Assembly: GCA_965205845.1 (NCBI GenBank)
Contig: CBDBIG010000003.1
Coordinates: 670,305-734,304, forward strand
Source of the DNA: a bacterium
GTDB taxonomy: Bacteria; SAR324; JACQKK01
DNA: 64,000 nt
Reading direction: 5' to 3'
Shown: positions 4,818 through 54,459 of the stretch, piece by piece
How positions within the stretch are numbered: the first letter of the stretch is position 1
Layout of the letters: the number at the start of each line of letters is the position of its first letter
Notes under the pieces: generated by a model
Told to the model about the DNA's origin: nothing
Database searches by the model: none
What the model saw: the letters and a program-made list of their open reading frames with translations, nothing else
Made by a program: the position numbers and the translations under genes

Positions 4818-5285
4818 CTTGTTGCTTCCTTATAGGCTAATACTTGCTAGCAATGGGCTGCCGCAAGACGAGCCCACAAACACGCAAAGTCTTCAAAACG
4901 AAGGCTTGCAGGGTCTTTCGCAGTCACATCGTTAATTTCTCGGTCAAAATGATCCGCAGCGTTTTCCAATAAGGTGCGAGCAGGCTGCCCTCATTTTAGG
5001 CTTCCACGTACCGGTTTTTTGGGTTTTGGGGTGTGCCCTTTTTTTTAAAAAAGCCTTTAAGTAAGCAGGCCACAGTCCCATGGCATTAAGCGAGACGCTT
5101 GCAGCACACGCCCGTTCACCCTATCAGCGTTTTTGGAAAAAAGGTAGATAGCAAAAAGCCCTGCAATCGATTAACAATGGCTAAGAAGTGGGCTTCAACA
5201 TGGCAGCATGGCCCGCCCAGCCTTGAGCCCACTCCTAGGCATCTCGTATTTTAGCAGCCACCAAAGCGTCACCATTTTAAACCCT

Positions 5286-6248
5286 ATGAACAAGCAGCAT
5301 CAAAGAATTTTGCGTATTGGGAGCCGCACCAGTGATTTAGCACTCCGCCAAACCCACGCCATTATGGCAGAACTTAAGGTACATTGGCCGCATTTACCCA
5401 TGCAAGTTTGCCCTTTAGATACCTTGGGTGATGCCGTGCAAAACCAATCAATCGCCGCGTTAGGGAAAAGCCATGGCGAAGGGGTGTTTAACAAAGCCCT
5501 TGAACAAGCCTTGCTAAATGACCAGATAGACCTTGCCACGGCATCGCTCAAGGACGTTGAGGGGCAACTGGCAAATGGGGTCAAAGTGGTGTGCGTGGGT
5601 AAACGCGAAGACCCAAGGGATGCGCTGGTTAGCGTACAAGGATACACCCTTGCAAACCTGCCCGCAAAAGCACGCTTGGGTTGCAGTAGCCCAAGGCGCA
5701 TTGGTCAACTTAAGGCATTGCGTCAGGACATTGAAGCCATGCCCTTGCGTGGGAATGTGCCTACCCGCATCGGGCAAGGTTTGCAGCACTACGATGGCAT
5801 TGTGCTGGCGGCTGCAGGGCTGATTAGATTAGGGTTGCAAGGGCGAGTTAGCCAGTTTTTCTCGCCAGATGCCATATTGCCAGCCCCCGGGCAAGGGGCC
5901 TTGGCAGTGGAGTTTATGAGTAAGCGCAGCGATGTTGCCACTTGGATTACCCCCCTTGAGCACCTACCCACCCAATGCTGTACCTATGCAGAACGCGCTT
6001 TGTTGCGCACGCTAAGTGGTGGCTGTTTTGCGCCTGTTGGTGCCTTGGCCAATGTGGAAAAAGATGGCAGCATGCGCTTAGAAGGGCGTGTGGTCTCCTT
6101 GGATGGTCGCAAAAAAATAGAAGGTGTGGCCCAAGGCCGTTTGCTTGATTGGAAAAGGACAGCCCGACGTTTGGGTGAGCAGCTGCTTGCGCAAGGTGCG
6201 AGACGCTTAATTGAAGACCTGCGCCAGCACCTTGCGCGCCAGGCATAA
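5286..6248 (+). CDS. hemC: Hydroxymethylbilane synthase (porphobilinogen deaminase).
   Basis: Conserved blocks: REDPRDALVS, SSPRR...LRGNVPTRI, GIVLAAAGLIRLGL, PAPGQGALAVE, LSGGCFAPVGALA. The ORF opens at 5208; the likely start is ATG at 5286. Confidence 0.92.
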   Translation: MNKQHQRILRIGSRTSDLALRQTHAIMAELKVHWPHLPMQVCPLDTLGDAVQNQSIAALGKSHGEGVFNKALEQALLNDQIDLATASLKDVEGQLANGVKVVCVGKREDPRDALVSVQGYTLANLPAKARLGCSSPRRIGQLKALRQDIEAMPLRGNVPTRIGQGLQHYDGIVLAAAGLIRLGLQGRVSQFFSPDAILPAPGQGALAVEFMSKRSDVATWITPLEHLPTQCCTYAERALLRTLSGGCFAPVGALANVEKDGSMRLEGRVVSLDGRKKIEGVAQGRLLDWKRTARRLGEQLLAQGARRLIEDLRQHLARQA

Positions 6249-6491
6249 AACCGGTGTCGACCTTAAAGGCCTTTGTTTCCTGGGGTTTTGCCATCAAACC
6301 GCTCGGGCAGGTTTCTGTTGTATGGCAGGTGGTAATAAAGGGGGCGGCTTGCTGAGGGAACGGCATGCTAAAGGGGTTAGAGGCTGGGGGCTTTGGGTGT
6401 GCAAGGTGTTGTGTTACTCGCCAAAACCTTGGGAACTACAAAGAAAAATGACCTAAGTAGAAATACCGGGCTCTACAAGAGTTATCTTAAC

Positions 6492-7014
6492 AGGATAGGT
6501 CTTATTTTCAACTCTCCTGCAAATGCTTTTTTGATGCGATTTTTTGCTATTTGAACATATTCGGTTTTTATTTCGACTCCTATAAACCTTCTATTATGTA
6601 TTAAGGAAGCTATTCCGCTTGAACCTGCTCCCATAATAAGGGTCTAACACAGCATTATTCTCATACCTACCAGATAATCTTTTTTGGCAATGCAATCCAT
6701 GCCCAAAATGCCATATGATTCTATTCCTTAATTTTAATCCTAAATCCTTAAAAACACCATACATTAGGATGTCCAAAGGTGTAATCTCCCCATTTTCAAC
6801 GTAATTTCCTACCTGCCAACAAATGCTACCTTTATAACTTAGCACCCTAACACATTCGGTTATTACATCTTTTTGCCATTTTACGTATTGATCAATATTT
6901 TTTTTCTTTTCGTATTCTTTGCCGACGTTGTAGGGAGGAGAAGTGACCACTAAATCTATAGATTTATCAGGTATATCAACAATTCTTTTTAAAATATCGG
7001 AGTTAAACAGTAGA
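6492..7014 (-). pseudogene. Frameshifted beta-class DNA methyltransferase (motif IV SPPY, probably an N4-cytosine/N6-adenine MTase) in an AT-rich islet. It has no canonical start codon and a +1 frameshift before motif I.
   Basis: Frame A gives ...LLFNSDILKRIVDIPDKSIDLVVTSPPYNVGKEYEKK...VLDPYYGS then stop. Shifting one base after 'tatggg' (near 6648-6650) gives GAGSSGIASLIHNRRFIGVEIKTEYVQIAKNRI (motif I plus following helix). An in-frame TAG lies upstream of the N-terminal region with no ATG/GTG/TTG before it. Confidence 0.75.
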
Positions 7015-7150
7015 TAATCCTCGATATTGAGTTGTTCAATTAATGCGGCTGCCTTATCTATGGTACTAACTCCTTGTAAGACAGATGCTTGTTGCGCTCG
7101 ATTCCTCTACAAATTTTTAGTAGGTTTTAGGGAGGGGTGGGGGGGAGGCA

Positions 7151-7345
7151 CCTTTCTCCTTATCTGGCAAAGGCAGACGCCCAACCGCTCAAGCCTACCT
7201 TTCTCCTTATCTGGCAAAGGCAGATGCCCAACTGCTCAAACCTACCTTTCTCCTTATCTGGCAGAGGCAGACGCCCAACCGCTCAAGCCTACCTTTCTCC
7301 TTTCTGGTGAAAGCAGACGCCCAACCGCTCAAACCTACCTTTTCT
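7151..7345. repeat. 48-bp tandem repeat x4 (cctttctccttatctggcaaaggcagacgcccaaccgctcaagcctac), 3' of ppsA.
   Basis: Read directly. Copies are slightly diverged (gatgcc/gacgcc, aaacc/aagcc). Confidence 0.85.
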
Positions 7346-9713
7346 CCGCTTGCAGCAGTTCTTCGCGTGCTTTGCTCAAAAGGTCCGGACGCACAACAAT
7401 GCCTGCGCTGTCTTTGGTTTTAGGCCAGTTGCAAAAAAAGCTTAAATTGGCTGGCGAGATGTGAGATAGCAGCAAAGGCTTGCCAATTGCTTTGGCAGAT
7501 TCAAGCGCTTGTTCCAGCAACCACAGCACCGCGGGGTGTTTTTCGTCTAAAAGGGGCTTGGCGAGCACGTTAGAGGCATCGATCCCCATAGCCAATTGGG
7601 CCACATCGGCCACATGTACAATCAAACCGTCGCAGGCCGTGCCAAACGCGTTCACGGCGAGCATTTGCGCAGGGGTGCGACACAGTAAATGGATTTCTAC
7701 TTGAGAGGCATCGAAGCCATTTTGTTTGAGCAATGCCTTGAGGGCATCCATCTCTTTCAGGGTGTGCACGGCGGGCAGCACCAGCTGAATGTTGTCCATG
7801 CCAATCTCGCCATAAGCCTTGGCCAACGCTTGTACTTCTAAGGCAAAGGCTTCTTCGTAGTCAAAGTCCTCGTAGCGCGCAAGGGAGCGCGCACCCATAA
7901 AGGGGTTGGCTTCGTCGCGTGCATTTTCACGCCCACCAATCAATTGACTTAAAGTATTGGCAGGGGCATCGGGCAACAAGACCCGCACGGGCTTGGGATA
8001 TACGGCCGCCGCAATGTGGGCAATCGATTGAGAAAGCTTGTCGACAAAGGCTTTTTTCTTATCATCCCAACCCTTGGTGGCCTCTGCAAACGCTTTTGCA
8101 TCTTGGCTGGGTGCTTGGATGCAAGCCATGGGATGCACTTTAACCACATCGCGAATTATCTCATCCATGCGCAACAAACCCACACCATCGTTGGGATAAC
8201 GCGCATCTGCAAAAACCGCATCGGGATTGCTGGCCTGCATCCATACCTTCACCTGTGGGCGTTCAAGTTCTGCCAAGCGAATGACGGCTTTTTTATAGGG
8301 TAAAATGCCCTCATACACAACACCACGACTCCCCTGGGCGCACGAAACGGTGACCTCCTGACCATTTTGAATGGCCTTGGTGGCCCCTGTGGCACCCACA
8401 AGGCAAGGCAAACCCAATTCGCGCGAAATAATGGCCGCATGACTGGTACGCCCGCCCGTTTCGGTTACGATGGCAGAAGCAATTTTCATGATAGGGACCC
8501 AATCGGGGTCGGTGCTTTCTGTGACAAGCACCATCCCTTTTTGAAACTCTTTAATGCTCTCTGGCGTTAAAATCACCGAAGCCAAACCGCTGCCAATATT
8601 TTCTCCCACCGCCATCCCGTCGATGAGTACGCTCGACGTTTTTTCAAGGGTCATTTGTTCAATCACCCCTTGTTCACGGCGCGACACCACGGTTTCAGGG
8701 CGTGCTTGCACGATAAACAAATCTCCACTCTCTCCATCTTTGGCCCATTCCATGTCCATGGGTTTGAAGCCGCCCGCCTCTTGCGAGTAATGATCTTCAA
8801 TCAAGGTAGCCCAGTTGGCAAGTTGCACCACCTCGTCTTCACCCAGGCAAAAGCGATCGCTTTCTTCCCCAGGCACGGGGGTGTTCTCAATGCCCCCTCC
8901 ATCGGTTTTGTACACCATGCGTTGCTGTTTGGCGCCCAGCAAAGCGTGGATAATCGATTTTTTGCCTTGCTTTAAGGTGGGCTTGTGCACATACCATTCA
9001 TCGGGGTTAATCGCCCCTTGCACCACATTTTCTCCCAGCCCATAACCGCCAGTAATGTAAATGGCATCATGAAAACCGCTTTCGGTATCGATCGAAAACA
9101 TCACCCCAGCAGAAGATTTATCGCTGCGCACCATTTTTTGGACGGCGATCGAAAGCGCGACCGAGAAGTGGTCAAAGTGGCGTTCTTGGCGATAGGCAAT
9201 GGCTCTGTCGGTAAACAAAGAGGCAAAGCAAGCACGGCAGCTTTCCAGCAAATGCTCATAGCCGCTCACATTCAAGTAGGTATCTTGCTGACCCGCAAAC
9301 GATGCATCGGGCAGGTCTTCAGCCGTGGCCGAAGAACGCACCGCAACGTCAACCAAATCGACCTTGTAGCGTTCGCACAAAACGTTATAGGCATCCACAA
9401 TGGCCTTCACAATTTCATCAGGCATCATGGTGCTCGTTATCAGGTCGCGCACCTGCTTGCCACGGCTCGACAAATTGGTAAGGTCATTCACATCCAAATC
9501 CGAAAGAATTTGCCCAATGCGTGACCTCACCCCCATGCTTTCGACAAAGTGGTTGTATGCATAGGCAGAGACTGCAAAACCATCGGGCACGCGGACCCCT
9601 TTACCGGTTAAATTGGCAAACATTTCGCCCAGAGAAGCGTTTTTGCCCCCCACCATGGGAACATCTTGAATTCCTAGGTCAGAGAACCAATAGATAAATT
9701 TTTCTTCAGCCAC
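7335..9713 (-). CDS. ppsA: Phosphoenolpyruvate synthase (pyruvate, water dikinase).
   Basis: 792 aa with N-terminal MAEEKF..VGGKNASLGEM, a central phosphohistidine region (GGRTSHAAIISRELGLPCLVG) and a C-terminal PEP-utilising domain. Confidence 0.95.
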   Translation of the reverse strand: MAEEKFIYWFSDLGIQDVPMVGGKNASLGEMFANLTGKGVRVPDGFAVSAYAYNHFVESMGVRSRIGQILSDLDVNDLTNLSSRGKQVRDLITSTMMPDEIVKAIVDAYNVLCERYKVDLVDVAVRSSATAEDLPDASFAGQQDTYLNVSGYEHLLESCRACFASLFTDRAIAYRQERHFDHFSVALSIAVQKMVRSDKSSAGVMFSIDTESGFHDAIYITGGYGLGENVVQGAINPDEWYVHKPTLKQGKKSIIHALLGAKQQRMVYKTDGGGIENTPVPGEESDRFCLGEDEVVQLANWATLIEDHYSQEAGGFKPMDMEWAKDGESGDLFIVQARPETVVSRREQGVIEQMTLEKTSSVLIDGMAVGENIGSGLASVILTPESIKEFQKGMVLVTESTDPDWVPIMKIASAIVTETGGRTSHAAIISRELGLPCLVGATGATKAIQNGQEVTVSCAQGSRGVVYEGILPYKKAVIRLAELERPQVKVWMQASNPDAVFADARYPNDGVGLLRMDEIIRDVVKVHPMACIQAPSQDAKAFAEATKGWDDKKKAFVDKLSQSIAHIAAAVYPKPVRVLLPDAPANTLSQLIGGRENARDEANPFMGARSLARYEDFDYEEAFALEVQALAKAYGEIGMDNIQLVLPAVHTLKEMDALKALLKQNGFDASQVEIHLLCRTPAQMLAVNAFGTACDGLIVHVADVAQLAMGIDASNVLAKPLLDEKHPAVLWLLEQALESAKAIGKPLLLSHISPANLSFFCNWPKTKDSAGIVVRPDLLSKAREELLQAEKR

Positions 9714-9829: not shown

Positions 9830-10216
9830 TTACGAAATTTTACCCTCTTCTGCCATTTTGGCAATGGCAGCTTCCATGTCATCCACATCCTCGAGGTAGG
9901 GAATGTCATAGGTGTCGCAGATCTTTTTATGCACAGCCCACAACTGAGAGTGGACCGATTCGGGTTTGGTTGAAATCAAAACATCCTCAGCTTTTGTCTG
10001 TTGATACTGGTTTAAGCCACCGATGATTTTGCTAAAATGTTCTTTAAAGGGTGAATCGGCAATGCCTTCAAGGTTGGTCGCCGTTTTAATTGCCATATTA
10101 AAATAATTGGTGGCAGAATCTTGATCTTTGTTCTGCAAATCGGTAATGCCTTGCTTAATGCATTTGTTAAGGCGATTGAACATTCTCAAATTCCGCACAT
10201 TTTTTAAATCAGCCAT
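9830..10216 (-). CDS. Hypothetical protein in a low-GC island.
   Basis: 128-aa ORF in an AT-rich ~950-bp island between ppsA and guaA. No recognisable motif. Confidence 0.4.
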   Translation of the reverse strand: MADLKNVRNLRMFNRLNKCIKQGITDLQNKDQDSATNYFNMAIKTATNLEGIADSPFKEHFSKIIGGLNQYQQTKAEDVLISTKPESVHSQLWAVHKKICDTYDIPYLEDVDDMEAAIAKMAEEGKIS

Positions 10217-10676
10217 AAGCCCGCAATTACTTCCTTAATTTCTATTTTTGTGGATGGATTGTTAGGTTTCGATAAAACTATCGTGCCATTGGGGTAAAGT
10301 ATAACGATACTACCCATTGCACTCAACAGGCATTTTGCCATCTTTCACGGATGCCGATAAAGTACTCGAACGCACACGAAACAATAGTAGGCAAGCAACA
10401 TAGACTGCGTAAAGCCAAACGAGGCCACCCTAGCACAAGTGCATTCCCACGCACCATGCGCGATTATAGCAGGTTAACCCAATGAGGCACGTTTTATTTT
10501 TTTTGCATACGGTGTAATAAAAACCTTATGGGGTGTAACCCTTAGTGTGAGACACATGAACAAGTGTTCTTAATCGCTCAAAAAGCGGGTGTGCATGATG
10601 CCCATGACGCGATGGGGGTCGTTTGGCGGGTGTTTCGCAAAAAAAATGGCCCCTCCATGGTTTATGACACGAAGGA

Positions 10677-16905: not shown

Positions 16906-17724
16906 GTGATACGAGAGACAAGATGCGCACCGCTGACAAATCGAATTATTTCGGCAGATTGCATTGACGCCACAGCCAAAATGCCAGCAGATCTGGTGGA
17001 TTTAACCGTTTTTTCCCCGCCCTACGATACCATTCGGGACTATCAAAAGGGTTGGCAGATCGATTTTCCCGTACTGGGAAAAAATGTGTATCGCGTTACC
17101 AAAACAGGGGGCCTTTGCGCGGTTGTTATCAACGATGGCACGCGGCGCTTTGCCAAGTCGCTTACCAGTTTTAGGTTGGTGGTCGATTGGTGTGATAAAG
17201 CGGGTTGGCGTCTGTTTGAAACGTGTATTTATCACCGTGATGGCAACCCAGGGGCGTGGTGGAAAAACCGCTTTAGGGTCGATCATGAGTATATCTTCTT
17301 GTTTTTAAAAGGCGAACGTCCCAAAACCTTTCACAAAGAACCCCTCATGATTCCTAGCAAGCATGCAGGCAGGCGCTACTCGGGGACAGATCGGCTGACC
17401 AACGGTCAATTCAAAAAAATTGTTCCAAAAACGGTCAACCCATTTAAATGCAGAGGGACGGTTTGGCGCTATGCCACGAGCAATACAGAAGGTAACAAAC
17501 TAAAACGTCAACATCCCGCCACCTACCCCGATCAACTGGCAGAAGATTTAATTTTGTGTTTTTCAAATGCGGGTGAAGTGGTCCTTGACCCCATGTGTGG
17601 GAGTGGGACCACGTGTGTGATGGCCTTAAAAAATGAGCGTCAATTTATTGGCCTTGAAATCAATGAAGCATACTGTAAGGTGGCCCAAATGCGCCTTCAA
17701 CAAGAATGTGCACAGCCGATCTAA
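16906..17724 (+). CDS. Solitary beta-class DNA methyltransferase (SPPY motif IV then DPMCGSGTT motif I; N4C/N6A type).
   Basis: VDLTVFSPPY...HPATYPDQLAEDLI...VVLDPMCGSGTTCVMALKNERQFIGLEINEAYCKVA. No adjacent nuclease gene; embedded among acyl-CoA catabolic genes. Confidence 0.85.
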   Translation: MIRETRCAPLTNRIISADCIDATAKMPADLVDLTVFSPPYDTIRDYQKGWQIDFPVLGKNVYRVTKTGGLCAVVINDGTRRFAKSLTSFRLVVDWCDKAGWRLFETCIYHRDGNPGAWWKNRFRVDHEYIFLFLKGERPKTFHKEPLMIPSKHAGRRYSGTDRLTNGQFKKIVPKTVNPFKCRGTVWRYATSNTEGNKLKRQHPATYPDQLAEDLILCFSNAGEVVLDPMCGSGTTCVMALKNERQFIGLEINEAYCKVAQMRLQQECAQPI

Positions 17725-52292: not shown

Positions 52293-52756
52293 GCTCTAAG
52301 CATCAACCATAGGGTAATCTACGCTTCTTTATGCTAAAATCATGCTACGGCGGCGTTTTAGCAAGGCCGGAATATCCCAAAAAATGCAGTTTTTGTTGGC
52401 TACGTAAAACCACATTTGTGTTACCCTAGATCCTATTAAGGTGTGCTGTGTACGCGGGATTTGATATCGACCCACTTTCTGCCCGTACTAATGTGGACGC
52501 ACCTTGTTTTGCAACCCTCCCAATTGCAACCCTCCCAATTGCATGGCGTGCCAAGGGAATTGGGGATACGACCCTGGCCAAGGCAGCAGGTTGTTGAGGG
52601 TGCTAGGGATTGTGCTTGGGTTGGCGGGGGATGCCTAAATTTTGAACCATTTTTGTGGACTGCCATCCTTTCCGCACCATGGCACGACATAAAAAACAAC
52701 GGGGTTTTGCTATTTTTACACCATTGTCGCTTGTCACTACCCCCCATGCCCTTAGC

Positions 52757-52917
52757 CCTTAGATTGACCTTTTTAGAATAAATGCCTTTACAAAGTACTT
52801 GGCTATGCATAAATACCAAAGCCTTTGTGAGCCTTTTAAAAAAAGCATGAGCAAGCCCTTTGACCCCCGTTAAAAAAACCATCACTCCCCCTCAAATTGT
52901 TAAAAACTCAGAGAAAA
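52757..52917. repeat. Left copy of a ~160-bp direct repeat (rnr leader / 5' coding sequence) bracketing the MTase cassette.
   Basis: ctaccccccatgcccttagcccttagattgacctttttagaataaatgcctttacaaagtacttggctatgcataaataccaaagcctttgtgagcc... is ~93% identical to 54719-54900. Confidence 0.9.
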
Positions 52918-53840
52918 AATGGATTAACAAAATCCATACTGGTGATGCGCAAAAAATATTAAGGGACATGCCATCAGATTTTATTGATCTAAGTTTTTGG
53001 TCCCCGCCATATTTTGTAGGTAAGGAGTATGAGAAGTACCTATCTTTTGATGATTGGAAGAGACTGCTTGAAGGGGTTGTTTGTGGGCATGCCCGTGTTA
53101 TGAGGGACGGTGCTTTTATGGTGATAAACATCAACGATATTTTATGCTTTCCTGATCCGAGCATGCCTAGGTATATGTCTAACAATATTGGTAATAAGAG
53201 GGTACCCGTCACCAGGCAAGATGCATTAGATGCCAAACGTAAAAACCCTGATGCAAACCGTTATGAACTAGCAAAAATTCTTGGGTGTAGCGAACAAACT
53301 GTACAGCGCAGACTTGAGCATAACAATATACGTGGTGGGAAGCAGGCTACCGCCACAAAAGTTTTGTCAGTAGCTGGAATGCTACAAGCGTGGAGTGAAG
53401 CAGCGGGGCTCTATCTGTATGACCGCCGCATTTGGCATAAAGACCCATGCTGGGCAAATAGCCGATGGCATAGCAATTCATATAGATCGATTGATGAGTT
53501 TGAATATCTTTTCATATTCTGGAAACCAGGCATTGTTGACATTGACCGGTCTCGCCTTAAAAAAAACGAATGGGCTGAATGGGGGTCACGGGGGGTTTGG
53601 AATATAAAATCAATTCGCCACAATAACCGCCATGAGAGTGAATTTCCTGAAATGCTGGCGGAACGAGTTATACGCCTTTTGTCTAATCCTGAAGGTGTTG
53701 TGCTAGACCCGTTTGTTGGTTCCGGCACCACAACTGCCGTTGCCCGCCGCCTCAAACGCAGATATGTTGGCATAGACAGGCTTGATAAATATGCCGTAAT
53801 TGCCAGGGATAGAACGAATGCAATCGATAAAACGGATTGA
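52860..53840 (+). CDS. Beta-class DNA methyltransferase (SPPY...DPFVGSGTT) with an inserted HTH-like segment, in a lower-GC cassette.
   Basis: IDLSFWSPPYFVGKEYEK (motif IV region resembling the 6.5-kb pseudogene) ... EFPEMLAERVIRLL...VVLDPFVGSGTTTAVARRLKRRYVGID. The ORF opens at TTG inside the duplicated rnr leader; the first codons (TPVKKTITPPQIVKNSE) mirror the RNase R N-terminus. Confidence 0.85.
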   Translation: MTPVKKTITPPQIVKNSEKKWINKIHTGDAQKILRDMPSDFIDLSFWSPPYFVGKEYEKYLSFDDWKRLLEGVVCGHARVMRDGAFMVININDILCFPDPSMPRYMSNNIGNKRVPVTRQDALDAKRKNPDANRYELAKILGCSEQTVQRRLEHNNIRGGKQATATKVLSVAGMLQAWSEAAGLYLYDRRIWHKDPCWANSRWHSNSYRSIDEFEYLFIFWKPGIVDIDRSRLKKNEWAEWGSRGVWNIKSIRHNNRHESEFPEMLAERVIRLLSNPEGVVLDPFVGSGTTTAVARRLKRRYVGIDRLDKYAVIARDRTNAIDKTD

Positions 53841-54459
53841 GGATGCCGAGAGATCTTGCATCAGATTAGTGTCTCGCGCCCTACGAGATTATAGGGATAA
53901 GGCGGTTGAAATCTTCAGAGAAGAATCCGATAAACCTGGTAATATAGCAGAAGATGTAACAAGGGAAGCTATGGATGCTCTTGGTACGTCACGGGTTCCG
54001 ATACGGCTGTATGGTAAAGTTGATGATAAACGTGCCGCGATAGTCTTTTTGTCGGATAGAGAAGTTGAAGTCGCCATGATGGTTGACCCCAAAGCTGAGA
54101 AGGATGGAAATACCGCGACCATTCAAATGTCTCAGACATCAATGCAAATTAGGCAATATAGGCAGGGGGAGGAAATTTGTGTTAATGGTACGCTACCGCC
54201 GTTTATTGAAAGAGAAGGCAAAAAACTTCAAACCATAACCATAATTGTAAAATATATTTACACCGAAATAACGACGCAGAAGTTTATCTTGGAAAAGATT
54301 AAAGTCGCCTGCATACCTAACGGTCTACTTCAGGAAAGTTACAACCCCAATGCACAAGATGGTTTTTGGAGGGTAGGCCGTAATGCACCTTCATTGGGGG
54401 AGGATTTTCGGGTGCGCCTCTCATTTAGTGATCTTCAAAAAAAGCAGAATGGCGAGTAG
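53818..54459 (+). CDS. Unknown protein translationally coupled to the MTase; candidate cognate restriction endonuclease or other partner (unclassified).
   Basis: ATG at 53818 overlaps the MTase stop (53840) by 23 bp; 214 aa, lower GC, no recognised family. A possible PD-(D/E)xK-like stretch (VDDK...SDREVEVAMMVDPK) is speculative. Confidence 0.45.
   Translation: MQSIKRIEDAERSCIRLVSRALRDYRDKAVEIFREESDKPGNIAEDVTREAMDALGTSRVPIRLYGKVDDKRAAIVFLSDREVEVAMMVDPKAEKDGNTATIQMSQTSMQIRQYRQGEEICVNGTLPPFIEREGKKLQTITIIVKYIYTEITTQKFILEKIKVACIPNGLLQESYNPNAQDGFWRVGRNAPSLGEDFRVRLSFSDLQKKQNGE

What the first reader, a model, noticed from the sequence alone, without database searches (positions are those of the whole stretch)
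6450..7030. AT-rich islet carrying a start-less, frameshifted methyltransferase pseudogene
The region drops to roughly 35-40% GC. Translating the minus strand gives a convincing MTase N-terminus (…ILKRIVDIPDKSIDLVVTSPPY) with an in-frame TAG and no ATG/GTG/TTG upstream. A +1 shift near 6648 is needed to read motif I (GAGSSGIASLIHNRRFIGVEIKTEYVQIAKNRI). No partner nuclease gene is adjacent, so this looks like an R-M remnant whose restriction gene is already gone.
Basis: seen in the sequence. Interest (0 to 1): 0.5.

Follow-up and report, generated by a model that had tools for sequence, protein, structure and literature searches.

The report
Dead restriction-modification cassette remnant
The AT-rich patch between the hemC and ppsA genes is the wreck of a foreign two-gene restriction-modification cassette (a methyltransferase plus a BstYI/BglII-type nuclease), disabled by a lost start codon, two deletions and a frameshift; this is an ordinary kind of genomic fossil.

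Summary
Window 6440-7125 (GC 0.33-0.36, against about 0.51 for the window) carries, on the minus strand, the remains of a beta-class N4/N6 DNA methyltransferase (Pfam PF01555). Compared with intact homologues of about 310 aa, it has four lesions. (1) There is no ATG, GTG or TTG between the in-frame TAG (7109-7107) and motif IV. An ATA at 7061-7059, eight bases after an AAGGAG, sits where homologues start, so it is probably a mutated ATG. (2) A 255-nt in-frame deletion at 6660|6659 removes 85 codons. (3) One extra base at 6635-6638 shifts the frame just before motif I. (4) A deletion of about 580 nt at 6495|6494 removes the last ~24 codons of the methyltransferase and nearly all of the downstream nuclease gene. 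Only the nuclease's last 13 codons and its stop remain (6494-6453). Intact relatives almost always carry a BglII/BstYI-family endonuclease immediately downstream. A related genome has hemC and ppsA 165 nt apart with no remnant, so the cassette was acquired in this lineage. This is a known phenomenon, of low interest.

The parts
6440..7125 (-). The AT-rich islet, which is the whole remnant of an M->R type II restriction-modification cassette. About 685 nt survive of an estimated ~1.5 kb.
   Evidence: GC is 0.33-0.36 here against ~0.51 for the window. blastn against the intact cassette in L001 gives three collinear HSPs. A related genome has only a 165-nt hemC-ppsA spacer.
7070..7075 (-). Shine-Dalgarno-like AAGGAG of the former methyltransferase gene, 8 nt upstream of the ex-start codon.
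   Evidence: Read directly from the sequence. The GGAGTTAGT string is also present upstream of an ATG in L001.
7059..7061 (-). ATA codon at the position of the ancestral start codon; ATG->ATA is inferred.
   Evidence: It lies 37 codons before VTSPPY. In most of the 40 homologous loci inspected the nearest ATG lies 34-38 codons before that point. One homologue (L048) starts MDK..., against IDK... in the window. No ATG/GTG/TTG occurs between TAG 7109-7107 and GTG 6950.
6660..7058 (-). N-terminal, catalytic half of the methyltransferase (motif IV TSPPY at 6941-6930, through ...SGRYE).
   Evidence: Matches PF01555 profile positions 1-85, E=8.8e-18. It is 82% nt and 86% aa identical to L001/P0001.
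6659..6660 (-). Junction of a 255-nt (85-codon) in-frame internal deletion (RYE|NNAVLDP). The deleted segment corresponds to Pfam profile positions ~86-189, including the conserved HPCQFP motif.
   Evidence: All 8 intact homologues carry the 85 residues. Pfam profile positions 86-189 are absent. L001 978-1242 has no counterpart in the window, and L001 has the direct repeat ACGAAA on both sides of the deleted segment.
6635..6638 (-). One-base insertion (CCT TATT ATG, against CCA TTT ATG in L001) that shifts the frame just before motif I.
   Evidence: The blastn alignment shows a 1-nt gap here.
6495..6634 (-). C-terminal AdoMet-binding part of the methyltransferase (motif I MGAGSSG...GELKIRP), out of frame with the N-terminal half. 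This frame runs on to TAA 6484-6482.
   Evidence: Matches PF01555 profile positions 190-220. It is 79% nt identical to L001 1243-1397. tblastn with P0001 residues 191-237 confirms it.
6494..6495 (-). Junction of a ~580-nt deletion that removed the last ~24 methyltransferase codons and codons 1-170 of the nuclease gene.
   Evidence: Adjacent window bases align to L001 1397 and L001 1977.
6453..6494 (-). Last 13 codons (PVKITLVEPGIST) plus the TAG stop of a BglII/BstYI-family restriction endonuclease gene.
   Evidence: A 48-nt HSP, 77% identical, matches the 3' end of the L001 endonuclease gene and ends at the same stop codon. PVKITLVEP matches PVKIILVEP at 8 of 9 residues. The same C-terminal strand aligns to BstYI residues 195-203.

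Best explanation
The islet is a non-functional fossil of a compact, horizontally acquired type II restriction-modification cassette. The cassette originally had a beta-class amino-methyltransferase (motif IV SPPY, so probably N4-cytosine specific) followed directly by a ~180-aa BglII/BstYI-family endonuclease. It landed in the short spacer between the convergent genes hemC and ppsA.

It no longer works as either enzyme.
- The nuclease gene is reduced to 13 codons.
- The methyltransferase has lost its start codon.
- The methyltransferase has also lost 85 internal codons, spanning Pfam profile positions ~86-189. From general knowledge of beta-class methyltransferases these are the target-recognition region and motif X; this assignment was not tested here.
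- It has lost its C-terminal ~24 codons.
- Its reading frame is broken before the AdoMet-binding motif I.

Inferred history (not shown): the nuclease was inactivated first, or at the same time as the methyltransferase, because losing the methyltransferase while the nuclease is active is lethal. The methyltransferase, no longer needed, then decayed through a microhomology-flanked deletion, a 1-nt insertion and an ATG->ATA change. The low GC content and the still gene-like substitution pattern suggest that acquisition and decay are recent relative to the divergence from the nearest known homologue.
For: Family identity:
- PF01555 matches profile positions 1-85 and 190-220 only.
- NCBIfam gives only sub-threshold partial hits to adenine/CcrM-type methyltransferase models.
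- The search returned 8000 homologues (its candidate cap); the listed ones are mostly ~300-320 aa.

Lesions:
- A protein alignment with 8 intact homologues shows the 85-residue gap and the truncated C-terminus.
- blastn against the closest intact cassette (L001) gives three collinear HSPs. They are separated by 265 nt (replaced by 10 nt in the window) and by 579 nt of L001-only sequence, with a 1-nt gap in the second HSP.
- Exact coordinates were verified.

Start codon:
- The ATA lies 37 codons before VTSPPY, behind an AAGGAG with an 8-nt spacer.
- Homologues start 34-38 codons before that point.

Partner gene:
- A PF09195 endonuclease overlaps or abuts the 3' end of the methyltransferase in L001, L003/L004, L005/L006 and L007/L008.
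- The same arrangement is found in 44 of 58 metagenome loci that have enough 3' sequence.
- Two plasmids are annotated by PGAP with a 'BglII/BstYI family type II restriction endonuclease' in that position.
- The L001 endonuclease matches BstYI (PDB 1sdo) at E=1.1e-35 and BglII at 4.7e-5.

Foreign origin:
- The islet GC is 0.354 against 0.506 for the window.
- Intact cassettes are 0.30-0.37 GC whatever the GC of their flanks.
- The relative L009 (PpsA 86% identical) has a 165-nt, 55% GC hemC-ppsA spacer with no remnant.

Timing:
- dN/dS against L001 is 0.06 with dS ~1.4.
- RGATCY sites are not depleted in the host sequence: 22 observed against 23.8 +/- 5 expected.
Against: - No reads are available, so the single-base insertion and the ATA cannot be separated from sequencing or consensus errors.
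- The closest intact homologue (L001) is only 82% identical in DNA. It has a 10-N scaffold gap in its own N-terminal region and an apparently longer N-terminus. An alternative reading, in which a ~50-nt deletion removed the start codon, cannot be excluded.
- The intergenic DNA of the relative L009 does not align with the window. The insertion boundaries and any target-site duplication are therefore undefined.
- The nuclease tail is short. It is weak at protein level alone (9 aa, E=0.01 in a 500-nt search, 4.5 against the whole window). Its credibility rests on exact collinearity at DNA level.
- The recognition sequence and the methylated base are inferred from family resemblance, not tested.
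Confidence: 0.93

Rival explanations
1. Assembly or sequencing artefact. The organism really carries an intact methyltransferase (and perhaps the nuclease), and the lesions come from consensus errors or collapsed assembly of an AT-rich region in a metagenome-derived contig.
For: The window's proteins occur in the public collection only on one 877,621-nt contig from NCBI/ENA, and they carry no source name there. No organism was identified for the window, so a metagenome-assembled origin is possible, though the data do not state it. A single-base indel and a single-base change in the start codon are typical error types. Read support cannot be checked with these tools.
Against: Two of the four lesions are clean deletions of 255 and ~580 nt with contiguous flanking homology. 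Assemblers do not normally create such deletions within unique sequence. The extra base is not in a homopolymer run (CCTTATTATG). The surrounding genes hemC and ppsA are intact.
Confidence: 0.03
2. A domesticated or split but still functional product. The 118-aa ORF (GTG 6950 to 6594, the catalytic half) and/or the 50-aa ORF (ATG 6634 to 6482, the AdoMet-binding half) would be expressed and act together, or in some new role.
For: Both ORFs have canonical start codons, and a public annotation called the 118-aa ORF as a protein (P0005). dN/dS against the nearest homologue is low, at 0.06.
Against: The segment at Pfam profile positions 86-189, including the conserved HPCQFP motif, is absent altogether. 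By general knowledge of beta-class methyltransferases this segment holds the DNA-recognition region and motif X, so no DNA-specific methyltransferase could be rebuilt. The GTG at 6950 cuts off the conserved N-terminal ~37 residues. P0005 is a singleton cluster, and the nearest relative genome lacks the region entirely, so nothing shows it is being retained. The low dN/dS is expected from the long divergence under selection before the gene was inactivated (dS ~1.4). The consensus scan found 4 promoter-like sites against 2.0 +/- 1.5 expected, which is no clear enrichment.
Confidence: 0.03
3. A solitary (orphan) methyltransferase that never had a nuclease partner in this genome and simply decayed.
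For: 9 of 58 homologous loci with enough 3' sequence show no detectable BglII-like nuclease. Orphan methyltransferases of this family therefore may exist.
Against: The window keeps 48 nt collinear with the 3' end and stop codon of the nuclease gene, directly fused to the truncated methyltransferase. All four of the closest intact contexts, and 44 of 58 metagenome loci, carry the nuclease.
Confidence: 0.01

Closest known systems
BstYI restriction-modification system (R.BstYI, PDB 1SDO/1VRR/2P0J; recognises RGATCY)
   Same: The nuclease next to the closest intact homologue (L001) matches BstYI over its whole length at E=1.1e-35, including the C-terminal ...PAVP(V/L)...strand that survives in the window. 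The gene order M->R with overlapping or abutting genes is general in this family. PMC2890505 lists M.BstYI as a possible N4mC methylase, which fits the SPPY motif here.
   Different: The window has only 13 codons of the nuclease and a four-times-broken methyltransferase. The intact relatives' nucleases are ~180 aa against 203 aa for BstYI. Their recognition sequence is not known, and RGATCY is only a guess.
BglII restriction-modification system (R.BglII, PDB 1D2I/1DFM; Pfam PF09195 Endonuc-BglII)
   Same: The relatives' nucleases belong to PF09195 (E=1.1e-17). PGAP names the plasmid-borne ones 'BglII/BstYI family'. PMC2890505 lists M.BglII among the N4mC methylases.
   Different: The sequence similarity to BglII itself is much weaker (E=4.7e-5, covering only part of the protein).
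M.RsrI and other beta-class amino-methyltransferases (PF01555: M.RsrI, M.MboIIA, CcrM, M.PvuII)
   Same: The intact homologue P0008 aligns with M.RsrI over residues 20-256 at E=2.4e-38. PMC2890505 gives the beta-class motif order as IV...VIII-TRD-X-I-II-III, and the window shows motif IV upstream of motif I, as expected for that order.
   Different: M.RsrI is an N6-adenine enzyme with DPPY, whereas the window has SPPY. The window copy lacks the segment that corresponds to M.RsrI residues ~155-245.
Decayed or orphaned restriction-modification genes in bacterial genomes (general phenomenon, from the comparative-genomics literature; my own knowledge, not checked here)
   Same: Atypical GC content, insertion between housekeeping genes without mobility genes, loss of the nuclease, and decay of the remaining methyltransferase.
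   Different: Nothing notable. This case is unusually well resolved, because one deletion joins the methyltransferase directly to the tail of the nuclease.

Membership tests
Beta-class N4/N6 DNA amino-methyltransferase (Pfam PF01555 N6_N4_Mtase) | Significant match to the family profile | tested here: met
   65.5 bits for the first frame alone and 98.1 bits for the frame-corrected reading, against a gathering cutoff of 26.7.
Beta-class N4/N6 DNA amino-methyltransferase (Pfam PF01555 N6_N4_Mtase) | Catalytic motif IV (D/S)PPY located N-terminal to AdoMet motif I (FxGxG) | tested here: met
   TSPPY at 6941-6930. (Y)MGAGSSG starts at 6634, but in a different reading frame.
Beta-class N4/N6 DNA amino-methyltransferase (Pfam PF01555 N6_N4_Mtase) | Complete domain, including the middle segment at Pfam profile positions ~86-189 (by general knowledge the target-recognition region and motif X) | tested here: not met
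   Profile positions ~86-189 of 221 are absent. The alignment to 8 intact homologues shows an 85-residue gap.
Beta-class N4/N6 DNA amino-methyltransferase (Pfam PF01555 N6_N4_Mtase) | Single uninterrupted ORF with a start codon (a functional gene) | tested here: not met
   No ATG/GTG/TTG between TAG 7109-7107 and motif IV. The frame is shifted at 6635-6638. The C-terminal ~24 residues are missing.
N4-cytosine-specific subgroup of beta-class methyltransferases | Methylates the exocyclic N4 of cytosine; SPPY/SPPF in motif IV is the usual sequence correlate | not testable with these tools
   SPPY is present. PMC2890505 states that beta-group motif IV is DPPY or SPPY and lists M.BamHI, M.BglII and possibly M.BstYI as N4mC enzymes. 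The gene is dead, so no activity is expected.
Type II R-M system of the BglII/BstYI type | An adjacent PF09195 endonuclease gene | tested here: not met
   Only 13 codons plus the stop codon remain (6494-6453). The partner is present in the closest intact relatives, in 44 of 58 metagenome loci and on 2 plasmids.
Pseudogene / gene remnant | Clear homology to a protein family together with multiple independent disabling lesions relative to intact homologues | tested here: met
   Four lesions were mapped against L001 and eight protein homologues.
Horizontally acquired islet | Atypical composition, and absence from the same site in a related genome | tested here: met
   GC is 0.354 against 0.506. 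L009 has a 165-nt hemC-ppsA spacer with no homology to the islet. Only one relative was available.

The most novel reading that the evidence does not exclude
The remnant might have been kept for a reason, for instance as an AT-rich spacer or terminator between the convergent hemC and ppsA genes. Alternatively, the 118-aa catalytic-half ORF might have been co-opted as a small SPPY-containing protein with a role outside DNA methylation. Nothing observed supports either idea, and the evidence merely does not exclude them.
Probability: 0.03. Interest if true: 0.4.

Novelty: new member of a known kind. Interest (0 to 1): 0.12.

Why it matters
This has little importance beyond annotation. The locus should be labelled as a restriction-modification pseudogene remnant, not as a 118-aa 'protein', which is how at least one public gene call treats it. 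It is a tidy example of how such cassettes die: one deletion takes the nuclease together with the methyltransferase 3' end, followed by a microhomology-flanked deletion, an indel and loss of the start codon. It also shows that this AT-rich ~1.5-kb M->R cassette spreads widely among unrelated bacteria and small plasmids without carrying any mobility genes of its own.

Tried and rejected
- **Organism identification.** A genome-contig scan with HemC found only an unrelated 42% hit. Exact-sequence look-ups of the window's 118-aa ORF and of PpsA found no contig on record. The cluster look-up returned no name or accession. PpsA homologues below 86% identity are only ~63% identical and come from unclassified MAGs labelled Deltaproteobacteria, SAR324 or Lambdaproteobacteria. 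The organism remains unidentified.
- **Closer intact homologue.** I looked for one to settle how the start codon was lost. The metagenome scan found nothing above 71% identity to P0001, and L001 has an N-gap in exactly that region.
- **Insertion boundaries and target-site duplication.** The intergenic DNA of L009 does not align with the window. Only short repeats were found, and they are probably chance matches. One is an 11/13 inverted pair at 6417-6429 / 7122-7134.
- **Structured RNA or regulatory elements.** There are no Rfam matches at E<=1 in 6000-7600. There are no terminator-like sites, and promoter-like sites are not clearly enriched.
- **Missing pieces elsewhere in the window.** tblastn found no other copy of the nuclease. 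It found only two distantly related, separate PF01555 genes.
- **Site avoidance in the host.** RGATCY is not depleted. This is uninformative, because the recognition site is only guessed.
- **Failed call.** The first protein search timed out and was repeated.

Full report
**1. What is in the sequence**

Between the stop codon of a porphobilinogen deaminase gene (hemC, 5208-6248, + strand) and the stop codon of a phosphoenolpyruvate synthase gene (ppsA, 7335-9713, - strand) there are 1086 nt of non-coding DNA. Within it, about 6440-7125 has a GC content of 0.33-0.36, against 0.50-0.56 on both sides. This is the longest and most AT-rich stretch in the 64-kb window.

- One frame is open from just after a TAG at 7109-7107. 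It reads ...IDKAAALIEQLNIEDYLLFNSDILKRIVDIPDKSIDLVVTSPPYNVGKEYE...SGRYENNAVLDPYYGSRFKRNSFLNT**.
- A second frame reads ...LIMGAGSSGIASLIHNRRFIGVEIKTEYVQIAKNRIKKAFAGELKIRPILLR*.

The first ATG/GTG/TTG in the first frame is the GTG at 6950, which is the valine directly before TSPPY.

**2. Family identity**

- Pfam PF01555 (N6_N4_Mtase) matches the first frame at E=8.8e-18 and the frame-corrected reading at 9.1e-28.
- Only profile positions 1-85 and 190-220 of 221 are covered.
- NCBIfam gives only sub-threshold partial matches to adenine/CcrM-type methyltransferase models.
- A search of the large protein collection returned 8000 homologues, which is the search's candidate cap. The listed hits are mostly ~300-320 aa and all carry PF01555.
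- One hit (P0005, 118 aa) is the window's own ORF 6594-6950 as called in a public record, on a contig of 877,621 nt. It is a singleton cluster with no name.

**3. Lesion map**

An alignment with eight intact homologues and a DNA comparison with the closest intact cassette define four lesions. That cassette is L001, an ENA metagenome scaffold, 86% identical in protein and ~80% in DNA. Coordinates were checked.

(a) *Start codon.*
- An AAGGAG at 7075-7070 is followed after 8 nt by ATA (7061-7059).
- The ATA lies 37 codons before VTSPPY.
- In most of the 40 homologous loci inspected, the nearest ATG lies 34-38 codons before that point.
- One homologue begins MDK..., where the window reads IDK....
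- I infer ATG->ATA.
- L001 has a 10-N scaffold gap in this region and an apparently longer N-terminus. A ~50-nt deletion that removed the start is a weaker alternative that I could not exclude.

(b) *Internal deletion.*
- A 255-nt, 85-codon in-frame deletion has its junction at 6660|6659 (RYE|NNAVLDP).
- It removes the block TILWFTK...HPCQFPVELIERLVLS..TN, which is present in all intact homologues.
- From general knowledge of beta-class methyltransferases, this block corresponds to the end of the catalytic region, the target-recognition region and motif X.
- In L001 the deleted segment is flanked by the direct repeat ACGAAA. That is compatible with a microhomology or slippage deletion.

(c) *Frameshift.* There is one extra base in CCT-TATT-ATG (6638-6635), where L001 has CCA-TTT-ATG. 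This puts motif I (F/Y-M-G-A-G-S-S-G) out of frame.

(d) *Terminal deletion.*
- Window base 6495 aligns to L001 1397, in methyltransferase codon ...IRP.
- The next base, 6494, aligns to L001 1977.
- The window therefore lacks ~580 nt, covering the last ~24 methyltransferase codons and codons 1-170 of the downstream gene.

**4. The lost partner gene**

In L001 the methyltransferase gene overlaps by 4 nt a 183-aa gene with Pfam PF09195 (Endonuc-BglII). The window's 6494-6453 reads PVKITLVEPGIST*, against PVKIILVEPDTNI* in L001, and both end at the same stop codon. The similarity continues 6 nt beyond the stop, to the end of the L001 contig.

On its own this tail is weak at protein level. Its exact collinearity with the preceding methyltransferase HSP is what makes the assignment convincing.

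The linkage between the two genes is general:
- The same M->R arrangement occurs in L003/L004, L005/L006 and L007/L008.
- It occurs in 44 of 58 metagenome loci that have at least 800 nt of 3' sequence. Five more have the nuclease in another arrangement, and nine have none detectable.
- It occurs on two small plasmids (Acinetobacter pANC7970.3 and Sphingobium p2). There PGAP annotates a 'site-specific DNA-methyltransferase' followed by a 'BglII/BstYI family type II restriction endonuclease'.

The L001 nuclease matches BstYI (PDB 1sdo) at E=1.1e-35 over its full length, and BglII at 4.7e-5. The closest solved methyltransferase is M.RsrI, at E=2.4e-38 for the intact homologue P0008.

Motif IV is SPPY. 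PMC2890505 states that beta-group enzymes have DPPY or SPPY, and lists M.BamHI, M.BglII and possibly M.BstYI as N4mC methylases. An RGATCY-like target and N4-cytosine methylation are therefore reasonable guesses for the ancestral system, but they are untested.

**5. Foreign origin and timing**

- The only close relative found (L009; PpsA 86% identical, ppsA DNA 80%) has the same convergent ppsA/hemC arrangement. Its spacer is 165 nt at 55% GC, with no similarity to the islet. The cassette was therefore gained in the window's lineage, or lost without trace in the relative.
- Intact cassettes are AT-rich (0.30-0.37 GC) even where their flanks are 0.54 GC. They sit between unrelated housekeeping genes in different hosts, without adjacent mobility genes.
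- The remnant still has the substitution pattern of a selected gene relative to L001 (dN/dS 0.06, dS ~1.4), and its GC content has not drifted toward that of the host. Both observations suggest that inactivation is recent relative to its divergence from known homologues. This is an inference.
- RGATCY sites are not depleted in the rest of the window (22 observed, 23.8 +/- 5 expected). That fits only a brief period of activity, but it is weak evidence because the specificity is a guess.

**6. Mechanism and history**

*Shown:*
- Neither gene can produce a functional enzyme.
- The nuclease is 93% deleted.
- The methyltransferase lacks its start codon, the segment at Pfam profile positions ~86-189, its C-terminus, and frame continuity into motif I.

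*Inferred from the established behaviour of type II R-M systems:*
- The nuclease must have been disabled before, or together with, the methyltransferase, because cells that lose methylation while the nuclease persists are killed.
- After that, the methyltransferase was under no selection and accumulated further lesions.
- The relative order of the four lesions cannot be determined.

**7. Rival explanations**

- *Assembly or sequencing artefact.* This could account for the 1-nt insertion and the ATA. It does not plausibly account for two clean deletions with contiguous homology on both sides. No reads are available to test it.
- *A functional split or domesticated product.* The missing middle segment argues against this. 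So do the singleton status of the ORF and its absence from the relative genome.
- *An orphan methyltransferase that never had a nuclease.* The nuclease tail contradicts this.

**8. Verdict**

The tools add two deletions, the probable ATG->ATA change, the 13-codon nuclease remnant, the identity of the lost partner (BglII/BstYI family) and an empty site in a related genome.

Decaying restriction-modification cassettes are a well-known phenomenon. This locus is a new but ordinary example, useful mainly for correcting the annotation. Interest is low.

Noticed in passing
window 7150-7347: A tandem array of a 47-nt unit (4.2 copies, 90% matching; consensus ACCTTTCTCCTTATCTGGCAAAGGCAGACGCCCAACCGCTCAAACCT). 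It lies between the islet and the ppsA stop codon, and its last copy runs into the final ppsA codons. It is found nowhere else in the window, has no Rfam match, and is not recognisable in the relative L009 spacer. Its origin and function are unknown.
   Followed up: partly
window 52860-54459: A second restriction-modification locus, partly overlapping two AT-rich stretches (52701-53200 and 54001-54300). It has a 326-aa PF01555 methyltransferase (52860-53840), overlapped by a 219-aa ORF (53800-54459) that matches the SfiI restriction enzyme family (PF11487, E=1.4e-44). The match covers only profile positions 87-285 of 292, so the nuclease may be truncated at its N-terminus.
   Followed up: partly
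window 16906-17724: A third PF01555 methyltransferase ORF (272 aa, full-length domain match, E=1.5e-34), 26% identical to the P0001 family. I did not check whether it has a nuclease partner.
   Followed up: no
window 6417-6429 and 7122-7134: An imperfect 13-nt inverted repeat (11/13 complementary; CTCGCCAAAACCT / AGGTTTTAGGGAG) that brackets the AT-rich islet almost exactly. It is probably a chance match, but it is the only candidate boundary feature found.
   Followed up: no
L001 575-584 (ENA scaffold NGUY21-1_SAMN17524319_METAG-scaffold_97820): The closest intact homologue has a 10-N scaffold gap inside the methyltransferase N-terminal region. Its gene was therefore called from an internal GTG (MVTSPPY...), and a separate 32-aa ORF (MAKMAENLK...) was called upstream. 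Its true N-terminus is uncertain.
   Followed up: partly
L009 11670-12636: In the related contig (named ctg117227_2x_l) hemC is called as two ORFs of 201 and 122 aa. This is probably a frameshift error in a low-coverage assembly rather than biology.
   Followed up: no
window 9951-10400: Another low-GC stretch (minimum 0.37), upstream of ppsA, overlapping a 128-aa ORF (9830-10216). Part of it (9830-9996) is conserved at 76% in the relative L009, so it is native DNA and not a foreign islet.
   Followed up: partly
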